Shown one piece after another: positions 42,795 through 47,663 of a DNA stretch of 64,000 bases (the first letter of the stretch is position 1; each line of letters starts with the position of its first letter). Both the position numbers and the translations under genes were made by a program. This stretch comes from a phage. The notes beneath the pieces were generated by a model, which was not told the DNA's origin, made no database searches, and was given only the letters and a program-made list of their open reading frames with translations. The stretch lies in assembly GCA_024613925.1 (NCBI GenBank), contig GCA_024613925.1_4713.1; one strand, written 5' to 3'.

Positions 42795-43433
42795 TTAACC
42801 TAATTTACCACCGGCGATATTGGTGAAATCTTCGCCATCAGGAACTTGCAGTAGGATACGTGCCATGTCCCAGTTGGTTAGTGTGATTGCTTTATCATCG
42901 ATACTCAGTTCTGGTAGGTCGAGTTCATGATCATCAAACTCGTAGGAAATACTCCACGTTTCGTCTGTTTTAGGATCGGTTATCAACACACCGTCTGTTA
43001 CACGCATGTAGTCCGGATGCAGTTCATTACTGAACGTGCTGAACGGATCGGTGTAACATTCAGCATACCCCTCGATCTGCTGACGTTGTGCCTTCGTACG
43101 TAATTCAGGGCACGCCATGATCAGTTGTCGAGATATACCGTTTGCCGCACGGAAGTCTTCCACGGTGATACATGGCATAACCACATCGTCATGGAAGATG
43201 TTCTCCGATTGTCTCAACAGCGTCTTACGGAGTTCAGCATAGTTTATCTGATTGAACGCATCGAACGTTGCTAACGATTCAGCGTAAAAATGCTTTACGT
43301 GTTCGCTTGCGCCGCCGAGGCTATTCATCAGCTTGTGGCCGTACTCCATAAAGCTTTTATCGAGACCGGAGGACATTTCTCCGAACCTCAGTGCACGATA
43401 ACTGTCTCGTCCACCTGTAAATATTTGCGCCAT
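42795..43433 (-). CDS. hypothetical protein (possibly a further RNAP beta-prime segment)
   Basis: 212 aa; AAGGAGG 10 nt upstream of its ATG, overlapping the stop of the 43449..43694 exon; homology to beta-prime not demonstrable by eye. Confidence 0.5.
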   Translation of the reverse strand: MAQIFTGGRDSYRALRFGEMSSGLDKSFMEYGHKLMNSLGGASEHVKHFYAESLATFDAFNQINYAELRKTLLRQSENIFHDDVVMPCITVEDFRAANGISRQLIMACPELRTKAQRQQIEGYAECYTDPFSTFSNELHPDYMRVTDGVLITDPKTDETWSISYEFDDHELDLPELSIDDKAITLTNWDMARILLQVPDGEDFTNIAGGKLG

Positions 43434-43448
43434 TACAGGCGTCCTCCT

Positions 43449-43694
43449 TTAGCAATGGTTGTTAGTTGCTTCTATTTCGTCAAGATACGGTTCTACGTCA
43501 TCGCCCTCCACGAATTCGTTGAACCAACAGTCAATGGTAGAAATAACCGGCGACTGGTGTTCACATTTCTTAGATACCTTAAAAGGTACGTTATTATCCA
43601 TCATACCGAGTTCGGGTCGAAAACGCCCGAAATGTTTCGCAGTCCAAATATCTGGGACGATATGGTTGTTCATCGTAGTGTTCAGCATGAGTCG
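43449..43694 (-). CDS. RNA polymerase beta-prime N-fragment, exon 3 (or separately translated 79-aa segment from ATG 43688)
   Basis: Reading from 43694: RLMLNTTMNNHIVPD resembles E. coli beta-prime ARALMMSTNNILSPAN, directly downstream of NADFDGD in the alignment. Begins CGAC after G43695. Confidence 0.5.
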   Translation of the reverse strand, partial: RLMLNTTMNNHIVPDIWTAKHFGRFRPELGMMDNNVPFKVSKKCEHQSPVISTIDCWFNEFVEGDDVEPYLDEIEATNNHC

Positions 43695-44028
43695 CTACCT
43701 CATACCCGCAGCTTTACCTGCAGCTTCCGGTGTTACCGGAATGACCAGAATACATCTTATCCATATTCCAAATGGAACGTAGGACTTCCGCGCTGGATCT
43801 CGCTTGAGACCACGTATTCGTTGAACGTTCTCCTGAACGGAGCTTCGCTGCTGATCGAACATTGTCACGTACGGTAGGCGTCCCCGAAGGGATTGTCATT
43901 GAAGCCGCGTACATCCGCTACCTTGTTTCTACCTTATCGGTTCCTCTTACGAGGCGTAGCGGCCTTAGCCCTTCCCAGCAATTCACGGAATCCAAGCTCT
44001 TCCTTTCGGAAGGCAGGGCCTATGATTA
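43695..44028 (-). ncRNA. group I intron-like core, copy 2
   Basis: Minus-strand P (AATTGCTGGGAAG, 43983..43971), Q (GATCAGCAGC, 43856..43847), R (GTTCAACGAATACG, 43826..43813), S (AAGATGTATTCTGG, 43758..43745). P4 and P7 pairings hold with compensatory changes relative to copy 1. No ORF on coding strand. No IGS identified for its 5' junction. Confidence 0.5.
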
Positions 44029-44041
44029 AGCGTCACCGTCG
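44029..44041 (-). CDS. micro-exon CGACGGTGACGCT encoding the catalytic D-G-D of beta-prime
   Basis: Only GAYGGNGAY in the 725-nt interruption; follows G44042; joins exon 1 (...AAC GCA GAT TT) in frame to give NADFDGDA; CGACGGU is complementary 7/7 to ACCGUCG at 44375..44369 (P10). Confidence 0.55.
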
Positions 44042-44419
44042 CTGTTTATCGACTATATCTTCATCCTCGTTGCGAGGAGTCTCCCGTTTTGGTCTGTGTT
44101 TAACAGAGCCTACTCTACTCGACATCGCGTCTTTCGATAGTCTGTGAGCACACATCTTAACGAACATTCGTGGATTCCTAAACAGGTGAATGTTCTTGTT
44201 GAGATGCTTCGCTGCGGATTATTCCCGTCCTACCTCTTTTACCATATCCAGTTCATTACGCTGGCCCTCATCTGTGTCACCACGATGAGTTGGTGTGTAG
44301 TCCGATTACAGAAACTTCCCGTCAATTAGAGAGTTTTAACTATGTTCCTGTTACCAGAAACCAGATCCCGACGGTATCAATAAATCAACGTAAGTTATTG
44401 AATTTATTGAAAAAAACTG
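44042..44419 (-). ncRNA. group I intron, copy 1
   Basis: Minus-strand P (AATTGACGGGAAG, 44327..44315), Q (AATCCGCAGC, 44220..44211), R (GCTCACAGACTATCG, 44149..44135), S (AAGATATAGTCG, 44061..44050) match the classical consensus elements from memory. IGS GGAUCUG (44368..44362) pairs with exon-1 end CAGAUUU with U-G at the splice site; ends with G44042. Confidence 0.7.
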
Positions 44420-45675
44420 AAATCTGCGTTATAACCTTTGAGGATCATCACGCTTAACCCGATGGTGTTATCCTGCGGATCGCGTTTAACCTTGGTGATT
44501 TCAAGACATTGGTTACTGCTTCGGTCAAGTGATGGGTTTCGAACAAAACCACACACAATCCCATCGAACGGTGTATCAGCAATAAGCTCATCGTGCAGCT
44601 CGCTCATCATCGGATGATAATTACGGACATGTTCCGCAACGAACGCACGTGCTGCTCTCGGTGAATACCCACGATGGAATAGCTTGGATTGGATATGTTC
44701 TTTATTGGTTAAAGTAAATGGTGCGTATGGGAAATGCAGATGATAATAACGATGGTTCGCTGTTATCGAACTGATTACGGTACGCGTGGTGAATGGATGT
44801 AATGTACCTAATATGTTTTTACGTGTGATACCTTTCTTCTTACCGATGAACTCATCGAAAATCGCCGCATGGTATTGCAGCAGCTTCAATTGCACTTTCG
44901 CCATCCAGTTTTCTTTCTTTCTGGCGCTCAAAGGTGTTGTTGGATGATAGATGCTATTCAACGTACCGATAGCATCGATCGCACCTTCCATTTTGCTATC
45001 CGCATAACGACCGGTTGGCGTATTCTCGATAACGAACATCATGGCCGCAGGAAAGCTGATATACTGGCTGAAGAACTTATCACGATGGATACGGATGAAT
45101 TCTCGTAGTGTGTCAACTTTCTCCGTGTTCTTCGGTCCACGTAACGTCGGTCCTTTATACAAGATCTCCATGATGCGATCGAAGTTCTGTATAAAACTAT
45201 TTACGCCACGACGTATCCCGAATACATCGAATTGCTGCTCCAGATAGTTCTTGAGTTCGATGGGTCGTTTTACATTTGGACGGTAACTGGCATCAATGAG
45301 CCACGTCATCGTTTCAAAGCTTTTGATATTCAACTCGCTTGCCAGCACGAGATGGACCAACGGGTTAATGAACGCATCGATTCCTTCAGGAACGCGCGCC
45401 CAAACCGTCGAACGAATCTCTTGTTCTGCTGGGTAGGTTACAACCGTTTTACAGTTTGGACACACCGTGCCGAGCAGCTCACCACGATTGTAGAAACCAC
45501 AACCACATTGTGGTGTGATATCCAACGTATCGCTGGAGTAAACACGGGTGATAAAACTGTTTAATTTCTTCTTCTCTTCGACGACTTTTGTATCGTAATC
45601 GTTCAACAAAATCGGCGTAAAAGGAAGTTCTGCGAGCTGTCTATCGAAACTCACGATATCGAGCATGATGGCCAT
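44420..45675 (-). CDS. RNA polymerase beta-prime N-terminal fragment, exon 1
   Basis: GKKKGITRKNILGTLHPFTTRTVI resembles E. coli [31 protein letters not shown] resembles LNRAPTLHR; unspliced ORF ends ...GYNADF then SFFQ-stop, i.e. inside NADFDGD. N-terminal C-x-C...C-x-x-C zinc motif. AGGAGA upstream of ATG 45675. Confidence 0.7.
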
Positions 45676-45717
45676 GGGGTATCTCCTACAAATGAAAAAG
45701 AACGTTAGGACGTATAA

Positions 45718-45767: not shown

Positions 45768-47663
45768 TTAGAACAGGTTGAATGCCCCACCCATGTTGTT
45801 ACCGCCAACATTCGGACGATCGCTACGTGCGTAGATGTTGCCGGAGATGTTACCCAGACCACGAGCACGTGCTGCCATGTTACCACGAACAGCGGTACCT
45901 GCCAGGTGCTGGATGTTCTCAGGACGGATGGTGAAGCCAGCATCAGCCGCAGCTTCGATCAGCGCCTGCAGTGCTAACGGATCGAAGTCGTAACGCATTG
46001 CCCAGCCGGTTTGTTCCCAGCTACCAGACAGAACACGATCAATGATTTCGTGACGAGCGACAACACGCTGAGACATCGTCATATCGGTACGGTCGAAGCT
46101 GTCTTCCCAAGCTTCTACGGTATCCGGGTTAGTGATGTTCATCATGTACAGATCGTCCATATCACGAATATCGTGACGGTGACCATCCTGGTGGTTGTAG
46201 TAACCCAGCGGGATACGGTTACCGGTAGCGTAGACCAGCGGTTGGCCGTATTGATATTTCTTGCTGAAGCAACCCAGGGTAGTATCATCGAAGGCACGGT
46301 AGAGTGCTTTGTAACCTTCGGAGATTTCTTGAACTTTACCGTCAACGTTGCCCGTAAAGATCTTCTCAGCCGCCGGGATCATACGCAGCAGCCAGCTATA
46401 CTCGCCTTCTTCCGGTACGTCGATAGAAATCAGCAGAGACGGATACAGAACCTGTTGCAGGAACTTGTAAATCTGCTCGTTGGTTTGCGTAGACAGATCC
46501 AGCGGTGCAGTCACTTCAGGATCCAGCACCATCGCCAGAGCACCTGGGTTATGCGGACCAATACCACGAGCCGCGTTGCTGATTAAAGACTGTGCCCATG
46601 CCATGCCGCTGTTCAGCGTAGCGATGGTACCAATCAGACCCAGCACGAAGCTGTTCGGTGTGAACGCATCCAGCTCCAGCGGGTAAACGCTGGTCATCAC
46701 GTAACGCGGCTGGTACTGTACAGTCGGCGGTACCGGATAGCCGTTAACCAGAACAGGGCCTTGGTTGAAGGTCGGGTTCTGCGGGCTGTAGGTCAGGTCA
46801 ATGTAACCGGTGGTGGCGACCAGACGCTGTTGACTATCGTAATCGCTCATCGCTTGACGGATGCGGTTAGAGATAGTTACAGTGATGTCAGAACGCACAG
46901 GGTTACCAACAATATCGCTGTCCTGCATACCGCTGGTGTTGTACTGAACGCTGCTGATTGGCTGATCGCTTGCCATCATGCCCAGGTTGAACTGCGGCAG
47001 ACCCAGTTTATCACCGAGACGGATTTCGATCGCGGTTTGGATTGCGTTATCTGCAGCAGACAGCAGGGTGGTTGCCAGATGCGCAGATTCAGCGGTGATT
47101 TCATTGGTCACCACAGCCAGACCAGCGATACGAACAGTACCGTTAGACTTACCGCCAATAGCTGAATACATTGCCGCCATGACTTCGTTGATGAACGTAC
47201 CGTTCAGGTTATCAACCCAGGTACGCGGTACCAGAATGTTACCATGCGGACCTTGTTCTTCACGACGCGGCAGCGGAGCCAGACCAGCAACCAGCGGCAG
47301 GACGTAACCGAAGAAGTGGTTATGATCACCAACTTTTGCACCGCTCATAACAACCAGGGTCGGATACGGTACGCTGTACTGGTTCGGGTCAACCGCAACA
47401 AAGATGAAGTCGTCTTTGAACTGGGTATCTTCCAGATATTTCTCCATCAGACGACGGAGATTCAGTACCTGCTCGGAGCCGGTATTACGGCTGATACGAC
47501 GGCTCAGTGTACGGTTGATCGTACGCATCGTATGAGTTACTTTAGGACGGTCGGCAAAATCTGCAGCGGTTTCCAGCGCCTCATCAGCACGTTGTGCGGT
47601 GCGGGTTTCAGCTGCACGAATTTCTACATTATCGTTACCGTTATTACGTACGTCTAAGCCCAT
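45768..47663 (-). CDS. abundant structural/shell-type protein; candidate chimallin (phage-nucleus shell), alternatively a virion protein
   Basis: 631 aa; lies immediately upstream of the beta-prime N gene, which I recall is the chimallin/nvRNAP arrangement in phiKZ; own promoter motif and strong hairpin. No sequence-level confirmation possible here. Confidence 0.3.
   Translation of the reverse strand: MGLDVRNNGNDNVEIRAAETRTAQRADEALETAADFADRPKVTHTMRTINRTLSRRISRNTGSEQVLNLRRLMEKYLEDTQFKDDFIFVAVDPNQYSVPYPTLVVMSGAKVGDHNHFFGYVLPLVAGLAPLPRREEQGPHGNILVPRTWVDNLNGTFINEVMAAMYSAIGGKSNGTVRIAGLAVVTNEITAESAHLATTLLSAADNAIQTAIEIRLGDKLGLPQFNLGMMASDQPISSVQYNTSGMQDSDIVGNPVRSDITVTISNRIRQAMSDYDSQQRLVATTGYIDLTYSPQNPTFNQGPVLVNGYPVPPTVQYQPRYVMTSVYPLELDAFTPNSFVLGLIGTIATLNSGMAWAQSLISNAARGIGPHNPGALAMVLDPEVTAPLDLSTQTNEQIYKFLQQVLYPSLLISIDVPEEGEYSWLLRMIPAAEKIFTGNVDGKVQEISEGYKALYRAFDDTTLGCFSKKYQYGQPLVYATGNRIPLGYYNHQDGHRHDIRDMDDLYMMNITNPDTVEAWEDSFDRTDMTMSQRVVARHEIIDRVLSGSWEQTGWAMRYDFDPLALQALIEAAADAGFTIRPENIQHLAGTAVRGNMAARARGLGNISGNIYARSDRPNVGGNNMGGAFNLF

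What the first reader, a model, noticed from the sequence alone, without database searches (positions are those of the whole stretch)
43695..44419. RNA polymerase beta-prime gene is interrupted inside the catalytic NADFDGD codons by about 725 nt containing two group I intron cores
Minus-strand ORF 44404..45675 aligns to the beta-prime N-terminal half and ends ...GYNADF followed by SFFQ-stop, exactly where NADFDGD should continue. Beta-prime-like sequence resumes at 43694 (RLMLNTTMNNHIVPD, cf. E. coli ARALMMSTNNILSPAN). The interval has no ORF on the coding strand and carries two sets of group I P/Q/R/S elements in the canonical order. An interruption at the Mg-binding aspartates cannot be tolerated unless it is removed from the RNA, and the phage presumably depends on this polymerase.
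Basis: partly seen in the sequence, partly recalled or inferred. Interest (0 to 1): 0.9.

Follow-up and report, generated by a model that had tools for sequence, protein, structure and literature searches.

The report
Tandem self-splicing introns in polymerase gene
In a giant E. coli phage related to Goslar, the gene for a phage RNA polymerase subunit is cut twice inside the codons for its catalytic aspartates by two group I introns that leave only a 13-base exon between them; introns in this gene were already known, but I found no description of this stacked layout.

Summary
The interruption is real, but its anatomy differs from the finding. The window is a 98%-identical relative of E. coli jumbo phage Goslar. 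The gene encodes the N-terminal beta-prime subunit of the non-virion RNA polymerase, the homologue of phiKZ gp55.

The layout on the minus strand is:
- exon 1, 45675..44420 (...GYNADF)
- intron 1, 44419..44042 (378 nt)
- a 13-nt mini-exon, 44041..44029 (CGACGGTGACGCT, completing F-DGDA)
- intron 2, 44028..43674 (355 nt)
- exon 3, starting at 43673 (MNNHIVPD...), not at 43694

Splicing would give ...GYNADFDGDAMNNHIVPD..., colinear with intronless relatives and with the solved phiKZ chain.

The evidence for the two introns:
- **Intron 1:** a full-length Intron_gpI match (44.6 bits, E 4e-8, below Rfam's cut-off of 50) and a 15-nt internal guide that covaries with synonymous exon changes.
- **Intron 2:** a weak Rfam match, but 33 of 104 pairs of its group I fold show compensatory changes.
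- **Boundaries:** near-identical phages lack intron 1 or intron 2 individually, which fixes both pairs of boundaries.

Other relatives carry a third intron, again 13 nt away. A distant chimallivirus has two introns around a 12-nt exon. Splicing itself is inferred, not shown.

Verdict: ordinary group I introns in an unusually dense, undescribed arrangement.

The parts
44420..45675 (-). Exon 1 of the nvRNAP beta-prime N-terminal subunit gene (Met1 to the first two bases of Phe419; ends ...AAC GCA GAT TT)
   Evidence: ORF. It is 98% identical to Goslar gp247/gp188 and homologous to phiKZ gp55 (PDB 7OGP_A, E 1e-74). Its last 7 nt, CAGAUUU, pair with the intron 1 guide.
44042..44419 (-). Intron 1, group I, 378 nt, no ORF. 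Parts: P1 extension hairpin 44410..44377; internal guide 44376..44362; P2 44361..44344; P element 44333..44315; Q 44226..44206; R/P7 44151..44135; P7.1 44138..44124; P7.2 44110..44091; P3' 44087..44079; P8 44078..44064; S/P7' 44062..44050; terminal G at 44042
   Evidence: Rfam Intron_gpI over the full model, 44.6 bits, E 4e-8 for the whole window. Guide complementarity. P1 covariation with the exon. The intron is absent from the close relatives L091, L230 and L234, which read straight through the site. Coordinates.
44362..44376 (-). Internal guide sequence of intron 1, UACCGUCGGGAUCUG. It pairs with the mini-exon CGACGGUG (P10) and with the exon 1 end CAGAUUU (P1, with a U.G pair at the splice site).
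   Evidence: 15 contiguous pairs across the ligated junction, reached by 1 of 5000 shuffles. The haplotype with exon GCCGACUU carries guide GGAGUCGGG, which gives 2 compensatory pairs in 4 of 12 sequences.
44029..44041 (-). Mini-exon of 13 nt, CGACGGTGACGCT. It supplies the last base of Phe419 and then Asp-Gly-Asp-Ala, two of the three catalytic aspartates of NADFDGD.
   Evidence: In frame with exon 1 and exon 3. Colinear with the intronless genes L093 and L094. Contiguous with exon 1 sequence in L230/L234 and with exon 3 in L232. Population variants differ only at synonymous sites (CGACGGGGATGCT, CGACGGAGACGCT).
43674..44028 (-). Intron 2, group I (IA-like), 355 nt, no ORF. It starts with an in-frame UAA. 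Parts: P10 guide plus P1 3' strand 44025..44018; P2 44013..43997; P3/P4 43990..43972; P5 extension 43971..43857; P4'/P6 43856..43825; P7 43824..43813; P7.1 43811..43795; P3' 43792..43786; P8 43785..43759; P7' 43758..43747; P9 43742..43724; P9.1 43723..43706; P9.2 43705..43685; terminal G at 43674
   Evidence: Partial Rfam match. The orthologue and paralogue in L091 match the full model at 28 and 26.4 bits. The structure has 104 pairs, 98.1% paired, 33 with compensatory change, against 36-43% paired in slid controls. The intron is absent from the close relative L232. Coordinates.
43449..43673 (-). Exon 3 (MNNHIVPDIWTAKHFG...NNHC plus stop; 74 codons)
   Evidence: Intronless homologues read NADFDGDAMNHHSAPD and NADFDGDEMNNHIPPD. 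Gene callers start 74-aa proteins exactly here in relatives. Colinear with phiKZ gp55 in 7OGP_A.

Best explanation
The gene for the N-terminal beta-prime-like subunit of the phage's non-virion RNA polymerase (the phiKZ gp55 homologue) carries two independent, ORF-less group I introns in tandem inside the codons of the catalytic NADFDGD loop. A 13-nt exon encoding (F)DGDA separates them.

Shown by sequence comparison:
- Each intron has its own complete ribozyme core.
- Each has its own guide sequence pairing with its flanking exons, a U (in a U.G pair) before its 5' splice site and a G at its 3' end.
- Each is individually present or absent among near-identical phages.

Inferred:
- After transcription each intron excises itself by the standard two-step guanosine-initiated transesterification.
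- This joins exon 1 (ends GAT TT), the mini-exon (C GAC GGT GAC GCT) and exon 3 (ATG AAC...) into an mRNA for a 497-aa protein with an intact NADFDGDAMNNH active-site loop.
- Unspliced or half-spliced RNAs end translation at once. Intron 1 has a stop after 4 codons. Intron 2 begins with UAA. Skipping the mini-exon gives GAT TTA TGA.

The introns are most likely remnants or passengers of homing-endonuclease-driven invasions. In Goslar and in another relative, intron 1 carries an HNH endonuclease gene inside a 3'-terminal stem, and the catalytic motif is a hot spot with many distinct insertion sites.
For: Identity of the gene:
- 98% DNA identity to Goslar, where one Intron_gpI and an HNH gene are annotated at this place.
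- The spliced product matches PDB 7OGP chain A, named 'PHIKZ055 | PHIKZ056.1', at E 1e-74, colinear and gap-free across both junctions.
- It gains a Pfam RNA_pol_Rpb1_2 hit (36.9 bits) that the unspliced ORF lacks.
- The gene lies next to chimallin, as in other chimalliviruses.

Junctions:
- Intronless homologues at 62-65% identity read GYNADFDGDAMNHH and AYNADFDGDEMNNH and are colinear at the DNA level.
- Near-identical phages lack intron 1 (L230/L234 read ATAATGCTGATTTCGATGGTGACGCT; L091) or lack intron 2 (L232 reads CGACGGAGACGCTATGAACAACCAT).

Intron 1:
- Full-length CM match, E 4e-8.
- 15-nt guide complementary to the ligated exons.
- P1 covaries with synonymous exon changes.

Intron 2:
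- 33 of 104 pairs carry compensatory changes, 98.1% of cells are paired, and 0 of 500 shuffles reach the observed values.
- P7 has 3 covarying pairs and P7.1 has 6 of 6.

Generality:
- 10 of 21 sampled Goslar-like loci carry a third intron 13 nt upstream.
- A distant chimallivirus has two Rfam-significant introns (54.8 and 68.3 bits) around a 12-nt exon, GATTTCGACGGT.
Against: - No RNA or protein data were available, so splicing, its order and its efficiency are inferred.
- Intron 1 scores 44.6 bits, below Rfam's gathering score of 50.
- Intron 2 gets only a partial 16.7-bit hit (E 0.19) in the window.
- P1 of intron 2 is short: 3 exon pairs plus 2 intron pairs. Its guide match alone is not better than chance.
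- Single-sequence folding energies are only about 1.9 sd below shuffles.
- In one relative (L091) the orthologue of intron 2 has C rather than U before the 5' splice site.
- The covariation for intron 2 rests on three really distinct sequences.
Confidence: 0.88

Rival explanations
1. One interruption of about 725 nt (44419..43695), holding two ribozyme cores, is removed as a unit, and coding resumes at 43694 with RLMLNTTMNNH.
For: Frame 43694 onward is open and in frame with exon 1 plus the mini-exon. G 43695 could in principle serve as a 3' terminal G.
Against: - The product would lack DGD, or would carry a 7-residue insertion after DGDA if the mini-exon is kept.
- All 54 full-length homologues examined have DGD-x-(M/L/I) with no insertion.
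- 43705..43685 is a hairpin with 4 covarying pairs and a conserved loop.
- The same stretch reads RFVLKIL in L091 while the downstream residues are identical.
- L232 joins GACGCT directly to ATGAAC.
Confidence: 0.02
2. The RNA is removed by group I chemistry, but not by two autonomous ribozymes. Intron 2, with its very short P1, or both introns may need an obligate order of splicing, a protein cofactor, or the ribosome-free phage nucleus to fold. Mini-exon skipping may be frequent.
For: - P1 of intron 2 has only 3 exon base pairs.
- The 13-nt exon is almost wholly claimed by P10 of intron 1 (8 nt) and P1 of intron 2 (3 nt).
- Exon skipping by neighbouring group I introns was reported for phage Twort (cited in PMC3073962).
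Against: - Each intron occurs without the other in close relatives, so neither depends on the other's presence.
- Both have complete cores with compensatory changes.
- Most sampled genomes keep two or three introns, so the arrangement is not strongly harmful.
Confidence: 0.2
3. The gene is a decaying pseudogene, and one or both introns are inactive relics. The phage either does without this subunit or obtains it elsewhere.
For: Both introns have lost any endonuclease ORF. The Rfam scores are below the gathering threshold.
Against: - Exon 1 is identical at the protein level across variants.
- Mini-exon variants differ only at synonymous sites.
- Guide sequences co-evolve with the exons.
- Helices keep pairing through compensatory changes.
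- Profile (nhmmer) searches with the two intron alignments found no further intron copies in the window; a second beta-prime-N gene was not searched for directly.
- The homologous subunit is part of the solved phiKZ enzyme.
Confidence: 0.03
4. There is no RNA removal. The pieces are separate polypeptides, as in the natural beta-prime split of these phages, or the ribosome bypasses the gaps.
For: Jumbo-phage RNAP subunits are naturally split after the DPBB domain (PMC7598289).
Against: - The known split lies after the domain, not inside NADFDGD.
- A 4-residue DGDA peptide cannot be a subunit.
- The gaps of 378 and 355 nt are folded ribozymes, far longer than any known translational bypass.
- phiKZ solves the same problem by splicing (chain PHIKZ055|PHIKZ056.1).
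Confidence: 0.01

Closest known systems
Group I intron in phiKZ gp55 (nvRNAP beta-prime N subunit), with the adjacent HNH gene gp56. The spliced product was solved as PDB 7OGP chain A, 'PHIKZ055 | PHIKZ056.1'.
   Same: Same gene, same catalytic motif, same kind of intron. In the phiKZ-like phage T2P a single intron sits at APN|ADFDGD and scores 80.4 bits with Rfam. Introns in phiKZ gp55 are mentioned in PMC11512511.
   Different: There is one intron there, at a site 8 nt upstream of the window's intron 1. The whole ADFDGD stays on one exon, and an HNH remnant is associated. The window has two ORF-less introns at other sites with a 13-nt exon between them.
Goslar (NC_048170 / MK327938) annotation: ncRNA 'Intron_gpI' 169269..169645 plus HNH endonuclease gp186
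   Same: Orthologous locus at 98% identity. Intron 1 is the annotated feature.
   Different: Goslar's intron 1 carries a 1065-bp stem-enclosed HNH/NUMOD1 gene just before its 3' splice site, which the window lacks. The record does not annotate the second intron, the mini-exon or a joined CDS: exon 1 and the 79-aa ORF are separate proteins. None of the Goslar papers I searched mentions an intron.
PhiPA3 gp210 intron in the virion RNAP beta subunit (Birkholz et al. 2024, PMC11620839)
   Same: A group I intron with an HNH homing endonuclease, inserted next to conserved catalytic aspartates of a chimallivirus RNAP gene. It shows that such introns are active in competition between phages.
   Different: A different polymerase (virion) and a different subunit (beta). 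It is a single intron, and its endonuclease was shown experimentally to nick the rival's gene.
[quoted passage not shown]
   Same: Several related group I introns within one phage gene, with paralogous introns and possible exon skipping.
   Different: I could not read the paper, so exon sizes are not compared. It concerns a different gene, and no catalytic-motif hot spot is reported.
T4 td-type subgroup IA phage introns (from my own knowledge, not tested)
   Same: Intron 2 begins UAAUCAUAGGCC..., much like the td intron start UAAUUGAGGCC. It has an in-frame stop at the intron start, a short P1 hairpin and a P7.1 extension.
   Different: No alignment to td was made here. This resemblance is only a lead.

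Membership tests
Group I intron: intron 1 (44419..44042) | Conserved catalytic core (P3-P8 with the P, Q, R, S elements) matching the family covariance model over its full length | tested here: met
   RF00028 model positions 1-253 are aligned. E 8e-10 for the local search and 4e-8 for the whole window, both strands. Orthologues score 46.5-46.9 bits.
Rfam RF00028 curated membership cut-off: intron 1 | Bit score at or above the gathering score of 50 | tested here: not met
   44.6 bits. This is an annotation threshold, not a structural feature. The shortfall comes from long insertions in P5, P6 and P7.1-7.2.
Group I intron: intron 1 | P1 formed by an internal guide with the 5' exon, with a U.G pair at the splice site, and P10 formed with the 3' exon | tested here: met
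   Guide UACCGUCGGGAUCUG pairs with CAGAUUU|CGACGGUG, reached by 1 of 5000 shuffles. Two compensatory pairs between exon and guide occur in 4 of 12 sequences.
Group I intron: intron 1 | Terminal guanosine at the 3' splice site | tested here: met
   G at 44042 ends the Rfam alignment. The boundary is fixed by the intron-less alleles L230, L234 and L091.
Group I intron: intron 2 (44028..43674) | Conserved core helices P3-P9, including the P3/P7 pseudoknot and a P7 with a bulged nucleotide next to the G-binding G-C pair | tested here: met
   104-pair model, 98.1% paired, 33 compensatory pairs, slid controls 36-43% paired. P7 is GAAUAC/GUAUUC with 3 covarying pairs and a bulged C. The L091 copies match the full RF00028 model at 28 and 26.4 bits.
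Rfam RF00028 curated membership cut-off: intron 2 | Bit score at or above 50 | tested here: not met
   A partial hit of 16.7 bits, E 0.19, in the window.
Group I intron: intron 2 | U.G at the 5' splice site within P1, P10 with the 3' exon, and a terminal G | tested here: met
   P1 is GCU|UA paired with UAGGC, 5 bp, 2 of them covarying. UCAU pairs with AUGA of exon 3. G at 43674. The boundaries are fixed by the intron-less allele L232. Caveats: P1 is short, and L091 has C instead of U at position -1.
Group I intron: both introns | Guanosine-dependent self-splicing | not testable with these tools
   This needs in vitro transcription with GTP and Mg, or cDNA from infected cells.
Subgroup IA (phage-type) group I introns | Extra helices P7.1/P7.2 between the 5' strand of P7 and the 3' strand of P3 | tested here: met
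   Intron 2 has P7.1 at 43811..43795 with 6 of 6 pairs covarying. Intron 1 has hairpins at 44138..44124 and 44110..44091 in that position. Finer subgroup assignment was not attempted.
Chimallivirus nvRNAP beta-prime N-terminal subunit (phiKZ gp55 family) | Sequence homology over the full length, the NADFDGD loop, and a position next to chimallin | tested here: met
   7OGP_A at E 1e-74 over residues 21-476. Pfam RNA_pol_Rpb1_2 hits only after splicing. The chimallin gene lies directly upstream here and in L085, L088, L093 and L225-227.
Mobile group I intron with a homing endonuclease | An endonuclease ORF inside the intron | tested here: not met
   There is no ORF above 66 aa on the coding strand, and none has a Pfam hit in the window. 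Intron 1 does carry HNH genes in Goslar and L229 (336 aa) and in L232 (320 aa, 28% identical to the Goslar one).
Twintron (an intron nested within an intron) | One intron interrupts the other, so the outer one can splice only after the inner one | tested here: not met
   The two introns are side by side and separated by coding sequence. Each occurs alone in relatives.

The most novel reading that the evidence does not exclude
The catalytic-loop codons of the chimallivirus nvRNAP beta-prime gene may be a standing battleground for mobile introns. At least eight insertion sites lie within about 30 nt. Up to three ribozymes are stacked, with 12-18-nt micro-exons between them. Nearly every base of such a micro-exon is at once a codon for the catalytic aspartates, the P10 target of the upstream ribozyme and the P1 substrate of the downstream one.

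Several things would follow:
- Splicing order and mini-exon skipping (which gives a stop codon) become built-in controls on how much active polymerase is made.
- A neighbouring intron destroys the recognition site of a rival intron's endonuclease, so ORF-less introns would be kept as immunity.
- Intron 2 paralogues sit after ACGCU at two different sites, which suggests spread by reverse splicing.
- The ribosome-free phage nucleus may be what lets such pile-ups persist.
Probability: 0.3. Interest if true: 0.75.

Novelty: new variant of a known kind. Interest (0 to 1): 0.55.

Why it matters
- **Annotation.** In Goslar and in hundreds of Goslar-like contigs found in Enterobacteriaceae assemblies, an essential polymerase subunit is listed as two or three 'hypothetical proteins'. 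The correct product is a 497-aa protein joined from three exons, one of them only 13 nt long.
- **RNA biology.** This is a natural case of two, and in relatives three, self-splicing ribozymes sharing micro-exons too short to serve one ribozyme without touching the other. It makes splicing order, interference between neighbouring group I introns and exon skipping directly testable in a tractable E. coli phage.
- **Phage evolution.** Near-identical genomes carry every combination of presence and absence, swapped endonuclease genes and paralogous introns at different sites. Together they form a ready-made data set on intron gain, loss and competition at one catalytic motif. It complements the PhiPA3/phiKZ work showing that such introns act as weapons between co-infecting jumbo phages.

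Tried and rejected
- **Rfam at gathering threshold on the whole window:** nothing found. The permissive mode was needed.
- **The search for related loci with the full protein alignment:** the tool chose NADFDGD itself as the search pattern, so it returned only uninterrupted genes.
- **A broader exon-1 alignment:** it had no stretch conserved enough to search with. A three-sequence alignment then found the informative loci L090-L092.
- **Contigs for the truncated homologues P0031, P0061 and P0048:** they end inside or just after the intron and gave no Rfam hit. L088 could still be read by eye as NADFD|GDEMN.
- **The 16-mer ATTCCGTGAATTGCTG from intron 2:** it occurs in more than 120 unrelated viral contigs. 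One is a capsid-like gene with two small related introns. It is a generic core motif of this intron type, so I did not pursue it.
- **Complete E. coli genomes and plasmids:** no copy of the locus.
- **Single-sequence folding:** only weakly better than shuffles, z about -1.9, so I relied on covariation instead.
- **A covariance model of intron 2:** not built, because at 355 columns it exceeds what calibration allows.
- **The Twort paper (PMC22036):** not held.
- **Readings rejected:** a single 725-nt intron, a nested twintron, a pseudogene, and split polypeptides or translational bypass. See the rival explanations.
Full report
**What the window is.** The region 43300..45700 is 98% identical to Escherichia phage vB_EcoM_Goslar, a nucleus-forming jumbo phage (Chimalliviridae). 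In the Goslar records the same place is annotated as follows: a 423-aa 'RNA polymerase beta subunit' or hypothetical protein, an ncRNA 'Intron_gpI', an HNH/NUMOD1 endonuclease, about 370 unannotated bases, and an 80-aa hypothetical protein. The chimallin (nuclear shell) gene lies directly upstream. Goslar differs from the window by a 1065-bp insertion that replaces window bases 44045..44044. The exact 423-aa ORF of the window exists in NCBI as a 'hypothetical protein' on a 238.6-kb contig of an E. coli isolate assembly. Goslar-like contigs of 231-259 kb are common in assemblies labelled E. coli, Salmonella, Shigella and Enterobacter and in metagenomes.

**Checking the observation.** The minus-strand ORF 44404..45675 does end ...LKGYNADF-SFFQ-stop. 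Rfam finds nothing at its gathering threshold. In E-value mode it aligns the whole Intron_gpI model to 44367..44042 (44.6 bits against a gathering score of 50; E 8e-10 locally, 4e-8 for the whole window). It also aligns model positions 50-157 (P3 to P7) to 43990..43786 (16.7 bits, E 0.19). The only coding-strand ORFs in the interval are 44-66 aa long and have no Pfam match.

**Where the exons really are.** Immediately after the G that ends the first Rfam alignment (44042) the sequence reads C GAC GGT GAC GCT. Joined to the end of exon 1 (GAT TT), this gives Phe-Asp-Gly-Asp-Ala. Among 73 homologues from the protein search, the two closest uninterrupted ones (62-65% identity) read GYNADFDGDAMNHHSAPD and AYNADFDGDEMNNHIPPD. 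All 54 full-length homologues examined have DGD, then one residue, then M/L/I, with no insertion. The window's ATG AAC AAC CAT ATC GTC CCA GAT at 43673 (MNNHIVPD) therefore follows directly after DGDA.

The spliced CDS (1256 + 13 + 225 nt) encodes 497 aa. It is colinear at the DNA level with the intronless genes L093 and L094, which have the same gene neighbours. It gains a Pfam RNA_pol_Rpb1_2 hit (36.9 bits) that the 423-aa ORF lacks. It aligns without gaps through both junctions to PDB 7OGP chain A (E 1e-74). The depositors named that chain 'PHIKZ055 | PHIKZ056.1', which is itself a spliced two-exon product of the phiKZ non-virion RNA polymerase.

**Intron 1 (44419..44042, 378 nt).** Besides the covariance-model match, it contains the guide UACCGUCGGGAUCUG at 44376..44362. 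This guide is complementary over 15 contiguous positions to the ligated exons CAGAUUU|CGACGGUG, with a U.G pair at the splice site. It sits just 5' of a GNRA-capped P2. Only 1 of 5000 shuffles of the first 90 nt does as well.

In an alignment of 12 distinct copies from Goslar-like genomes there are two haplotypes. Exon GCA GAU UU goes with guide GGGAUCUGG, and exon GCC GAC UU (synonymous) goes with guide GGAGUCGGG. RNAalifold finds this helix unaided and counts two compensatory pairs and one wobble change in 4 of 12 sequences. The core shows P, Q, R, S, P7.1/P7.2-type hairpins, P8 and a short 3' tail ending in G.

**Intron 2 (44028..43674, 355 nt).** Rfam is weak here, so I used relatives. Five copies were aligned: window, Goslar, L092, the positional orthologue in L091 (about 89% identical), and a paralogue sitting at another site in L091 (about 78%). 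RNAalifold, plus the P7 pseudoknot that I added by hand, gives 104 pairs in 20 helices: P1, P2, P3, P4, P5 with a three-way extension, P6, P7, P7.1, P8, P9, P9.1 and P9.2. The results were:

| Measure | Result |
|---|---|
| Cells forming standard pairs | 98.1% |
| Same measure when partners are slid by 1-3 columns | 36-43% |
| Pairs with compensatory changes | 33 |
| Shuffles (of 500) reaching the observed values | 0 |

P7 (GAAUAC/GUAUUC, with a bulged C beside the G-C pair) has three covarying pairs. P7.1 covaries at 6 of 6 pairs. P1 is GCU|UA paired with UAGGC. The bases just upstream (UCAU) can pair with AUGA of exon 3 as P10. In the paralogue, whose 3' exon is GACUUUGA, that segment reads UCAAA instead. 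The L091 copies match the full Rfam model at 28 and 26.4 bits.

In L091 it would read RFVLKIL, while the following MNNHIVPDIWTAK... is identical.

**Presence/absence polymorphism fixes the boundaries.** I sampled Goslar-like genomes through the window's own downstream ORFs and through IMG/VR, then mapped the introns.

| Configuration | Loci |
|---|---|
| Introns 1 + 2 (window type) | L216, L220, L221, L231, L233 |
| Intron 0 + 1 + 2 | L092, L215, L217-L219, L222-L224, L228, L235 |
| Intron 0 + 2, no intron 1 | L230, L234 |
| Intron 1 with a 320-aa HNH gene, no intron 2 | L232 |
| Intron 1 with a 336-aa HNH gene, plus intron 2 | Goslar, L229 |
| An intron-2 paralogue at NA\|DF plus the intron-2 orthologue | L091 |

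- Intron 0 is 365 nt and lies between GGG T and AT AAT. It scores 30.3 bits with Rfam. It leaves a second 13-nt mini-exon, ATAATGCAGATTT.
- In L230 and L234 the exon reads ATAATGCTGATTTCGATGGTGACGCT, straight through the intron-1 site.
- In L232 the sequence reads CGACGGAGACGCT ATGAACAACCAT, straight through the intron-2 site.
- In L091 an 18-nt mini-exon, GACTTTGACGGTGATGCC, separates the two introns.

Each intron is thus an independent unit with exactly the boundaries inferred above. The mini-exon varies only at synonymous positions (GGT/GGG/GGA, GAC/GAT), as expected for translated sequence.

**The endonuclease module.** In Goslar the HNH/NUMOD1 gene has its own AGGAGG and a TTG start. It lies in the loop of a perfect 14-bp stem (UUACGUGCACCGAC...GUCGGUGCACGUAA), placed between GAUAA and the terminal G of intron 1. 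L232 has a different stem (AUAGUUUAAUUUG/CAAAUUAAACUAU) and an HNH protein only 28% identical to Goslar's, at the same place in an intron that is otherwise 94% identical. The window's intron 1 has just GAUAAACAG there. Most sampled genomes are ORF-less.

**A hot spot, and a recurrent layout.** Elsewhere in chimalliviruses the same motif is interrupted at other positions:

| Position | Where seen |
|---|---|
| KA\|PNADFDGD | Xanthomonas phage LucasX, 54.7 bits |
| APN\|ADFDGD | phiKZ-like T2P, 80.4 bits |
| NAD\| | four truncated metagenomic proteins |
| NADFD\|GD | L088, with HNH |
| NADFDG\|D | L225 (87.8 bits, with HNH), L227 |
| NADFDGD\| | L085, L087 |

A distant chimallivirus contig (L226, 31% protein identity) has two introns that both pass the Rfam gathering score (54.8 and 68.3 bits). 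They flank a 12-nt exon, GATTTCGACGGT (NA|DFDG|DALNY). Tandem introns with micro-exons in this motif have therefore arisen more than once.

**How it most likely works.**

Shown:
- two complete ribozyme architectures, each with its own exon-pairing guide;
- exact colinearity of the joined exons with intronless and solved homologues;
- independent presence and absence of each intron.

Inferred:
- The pre-mRNA is probably made early, because nvRNAP genes are expressed by the virion polymerase (as summarised in the preprint read).
- Each intron excises itself by guanosine attack at the U.G site, followed by exon ligation after the terminal G.
- Translation of unprocessed RNA stops at once. There is a stop four codons into intron 1. 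UAA is the first triplet of intron 2. Exon 1 joined directly to exon 3 reads GAT TTA TGA.
- The 13-nt exon is used by P10 of intron 1 (up to 8 nt) and by P1 of intron 2 (3 nt). The two ribozymes may therefore interfere with each other or act in a preferred order. I cannot tell which.

**What is known and what is new.** Group I introns in jumbo-phage RNAP genes are established. Introns in phiKZ gp55 and gp180 and the endonucleases gp56, gp72 and gp179 are cited in PMC11512511. The PhiPA3 gp210 intron in the virion RNAP beta subunit has been shown to act in phage competition (PMC11620839). Goslar's first intron is annotated in GenBank.

I found no description of the second intron, the mini-exon, the joined gene or the multi-intron polymorphism. 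Searches for Goslar with intron, NADFDGD with intron, and mini-exon with phage group I introns gave nothing relevant. The Goslar papers I opened do not mention introns. The library is incomplete, so this is absence of evidence only. Multi-intron phage genes with exon skipping are known from Twort.

I therefore rate this as a new variant of a known kind. The parts are ordinary. The packing is unusual and undescribed, and the system is a convenient one for studying interactions between neighbouring ribozymes and the turnover of mobile introns.

Noticed in passing
window 45768..47663 (-): The 631-aa ORF directly upstream of the polymerase gene is chimallin, the phage-nucleus shell protein (annotated as such in Goslar; Pfam Chimallin_Phikzvirus in related loci). 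The order chimallin, then beta-prime N, then a 212-aa ORF is conserved even in relatives at 62-65% identity.
   Followed up: partly
window 42795..43433 (-): A 212-aa ORF with no Pfam match follows the polymerase gene in the window, in Goslar and in the intronless relatives L093 and L094. It is a conserved neighbour of unknown function.
   Followed up: no
L091 5107..5125 (IMGVR_UViG_3300011560_000001): In this relative the orthologue of intron 2 follows GAT GCC, so the base before the 5' splice site is C (a C-G pair with the guide) instead of the near-universal U.G wobble. Its guide CAUGGC is a perfect complement of the ligated junction GCC|AUG. I could not check whether this copy splices or whether this is an assembly artefact.
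   Followed up: partly
L091 4752..5101 compared with window 44028..43674: An intron about 78% identical to intron 2 in its 5' half sits at a different site (AAC GCT|GAC TTT). Both sites share the 5' exon bases ACGCU. This suggests the intron moved between sites, for example by reverse splicing into a short guide match.
   Followed up: partly
L092 5030..5108; L091 5040..5101; window 43723..43674: Intron 0, the L091 paralogue and intron 2 share the same 3' terminal module: the P9.1-type stem, the P9.2 hairpin with loop GUAGCGA, and the tail CUGAAGAU. The core of intron 0 looks more like that of intron 1. This suggests that neighbouring introns exchange peripheral domains by recombination.
   Followed up: no
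protein cluster (P0081, Shigella sonnei contig of 243.8 kb): A further read-through tail...MILKG|STLICNFV, differs from all the intron starts I analysed. It points to yet another intron variant at the Gly-Tyr site.
   Followed up: no
(accessions such as HCJ5982502.1, ECF3570966.1, EIP0347786.1, HDC4419182.1): Near-complete Goslar-like phage genomes (236-259 kb contigs) appear in many isolate assemblies labelled E. coli, Salmonella, Shigella and Enterobacter hormaechei. Possible reasons are a carrier state, contamination, or a broad host range for these lytic jumbo phages.
   Followed up: no
L226 6519..7751: A distant chimallivirus contig carries an IS605 OrfB/TnpB (Cas12f-like) gene about 900 bp downstream of its doubly interrupted polymerase gene.
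   Followed up: no
L143 2900..3500 (IMGVR_UViG_3300031687_000268), also L154: An unrelated viral contig has two small (about 240 nt) group I introns of the same core type (ATTCCGTGAATTGCTG), 338 nt apart, in what looks like a capsid-like structural gene. They share a 3' tail resembling that of intron 2.
   Followed up: partly
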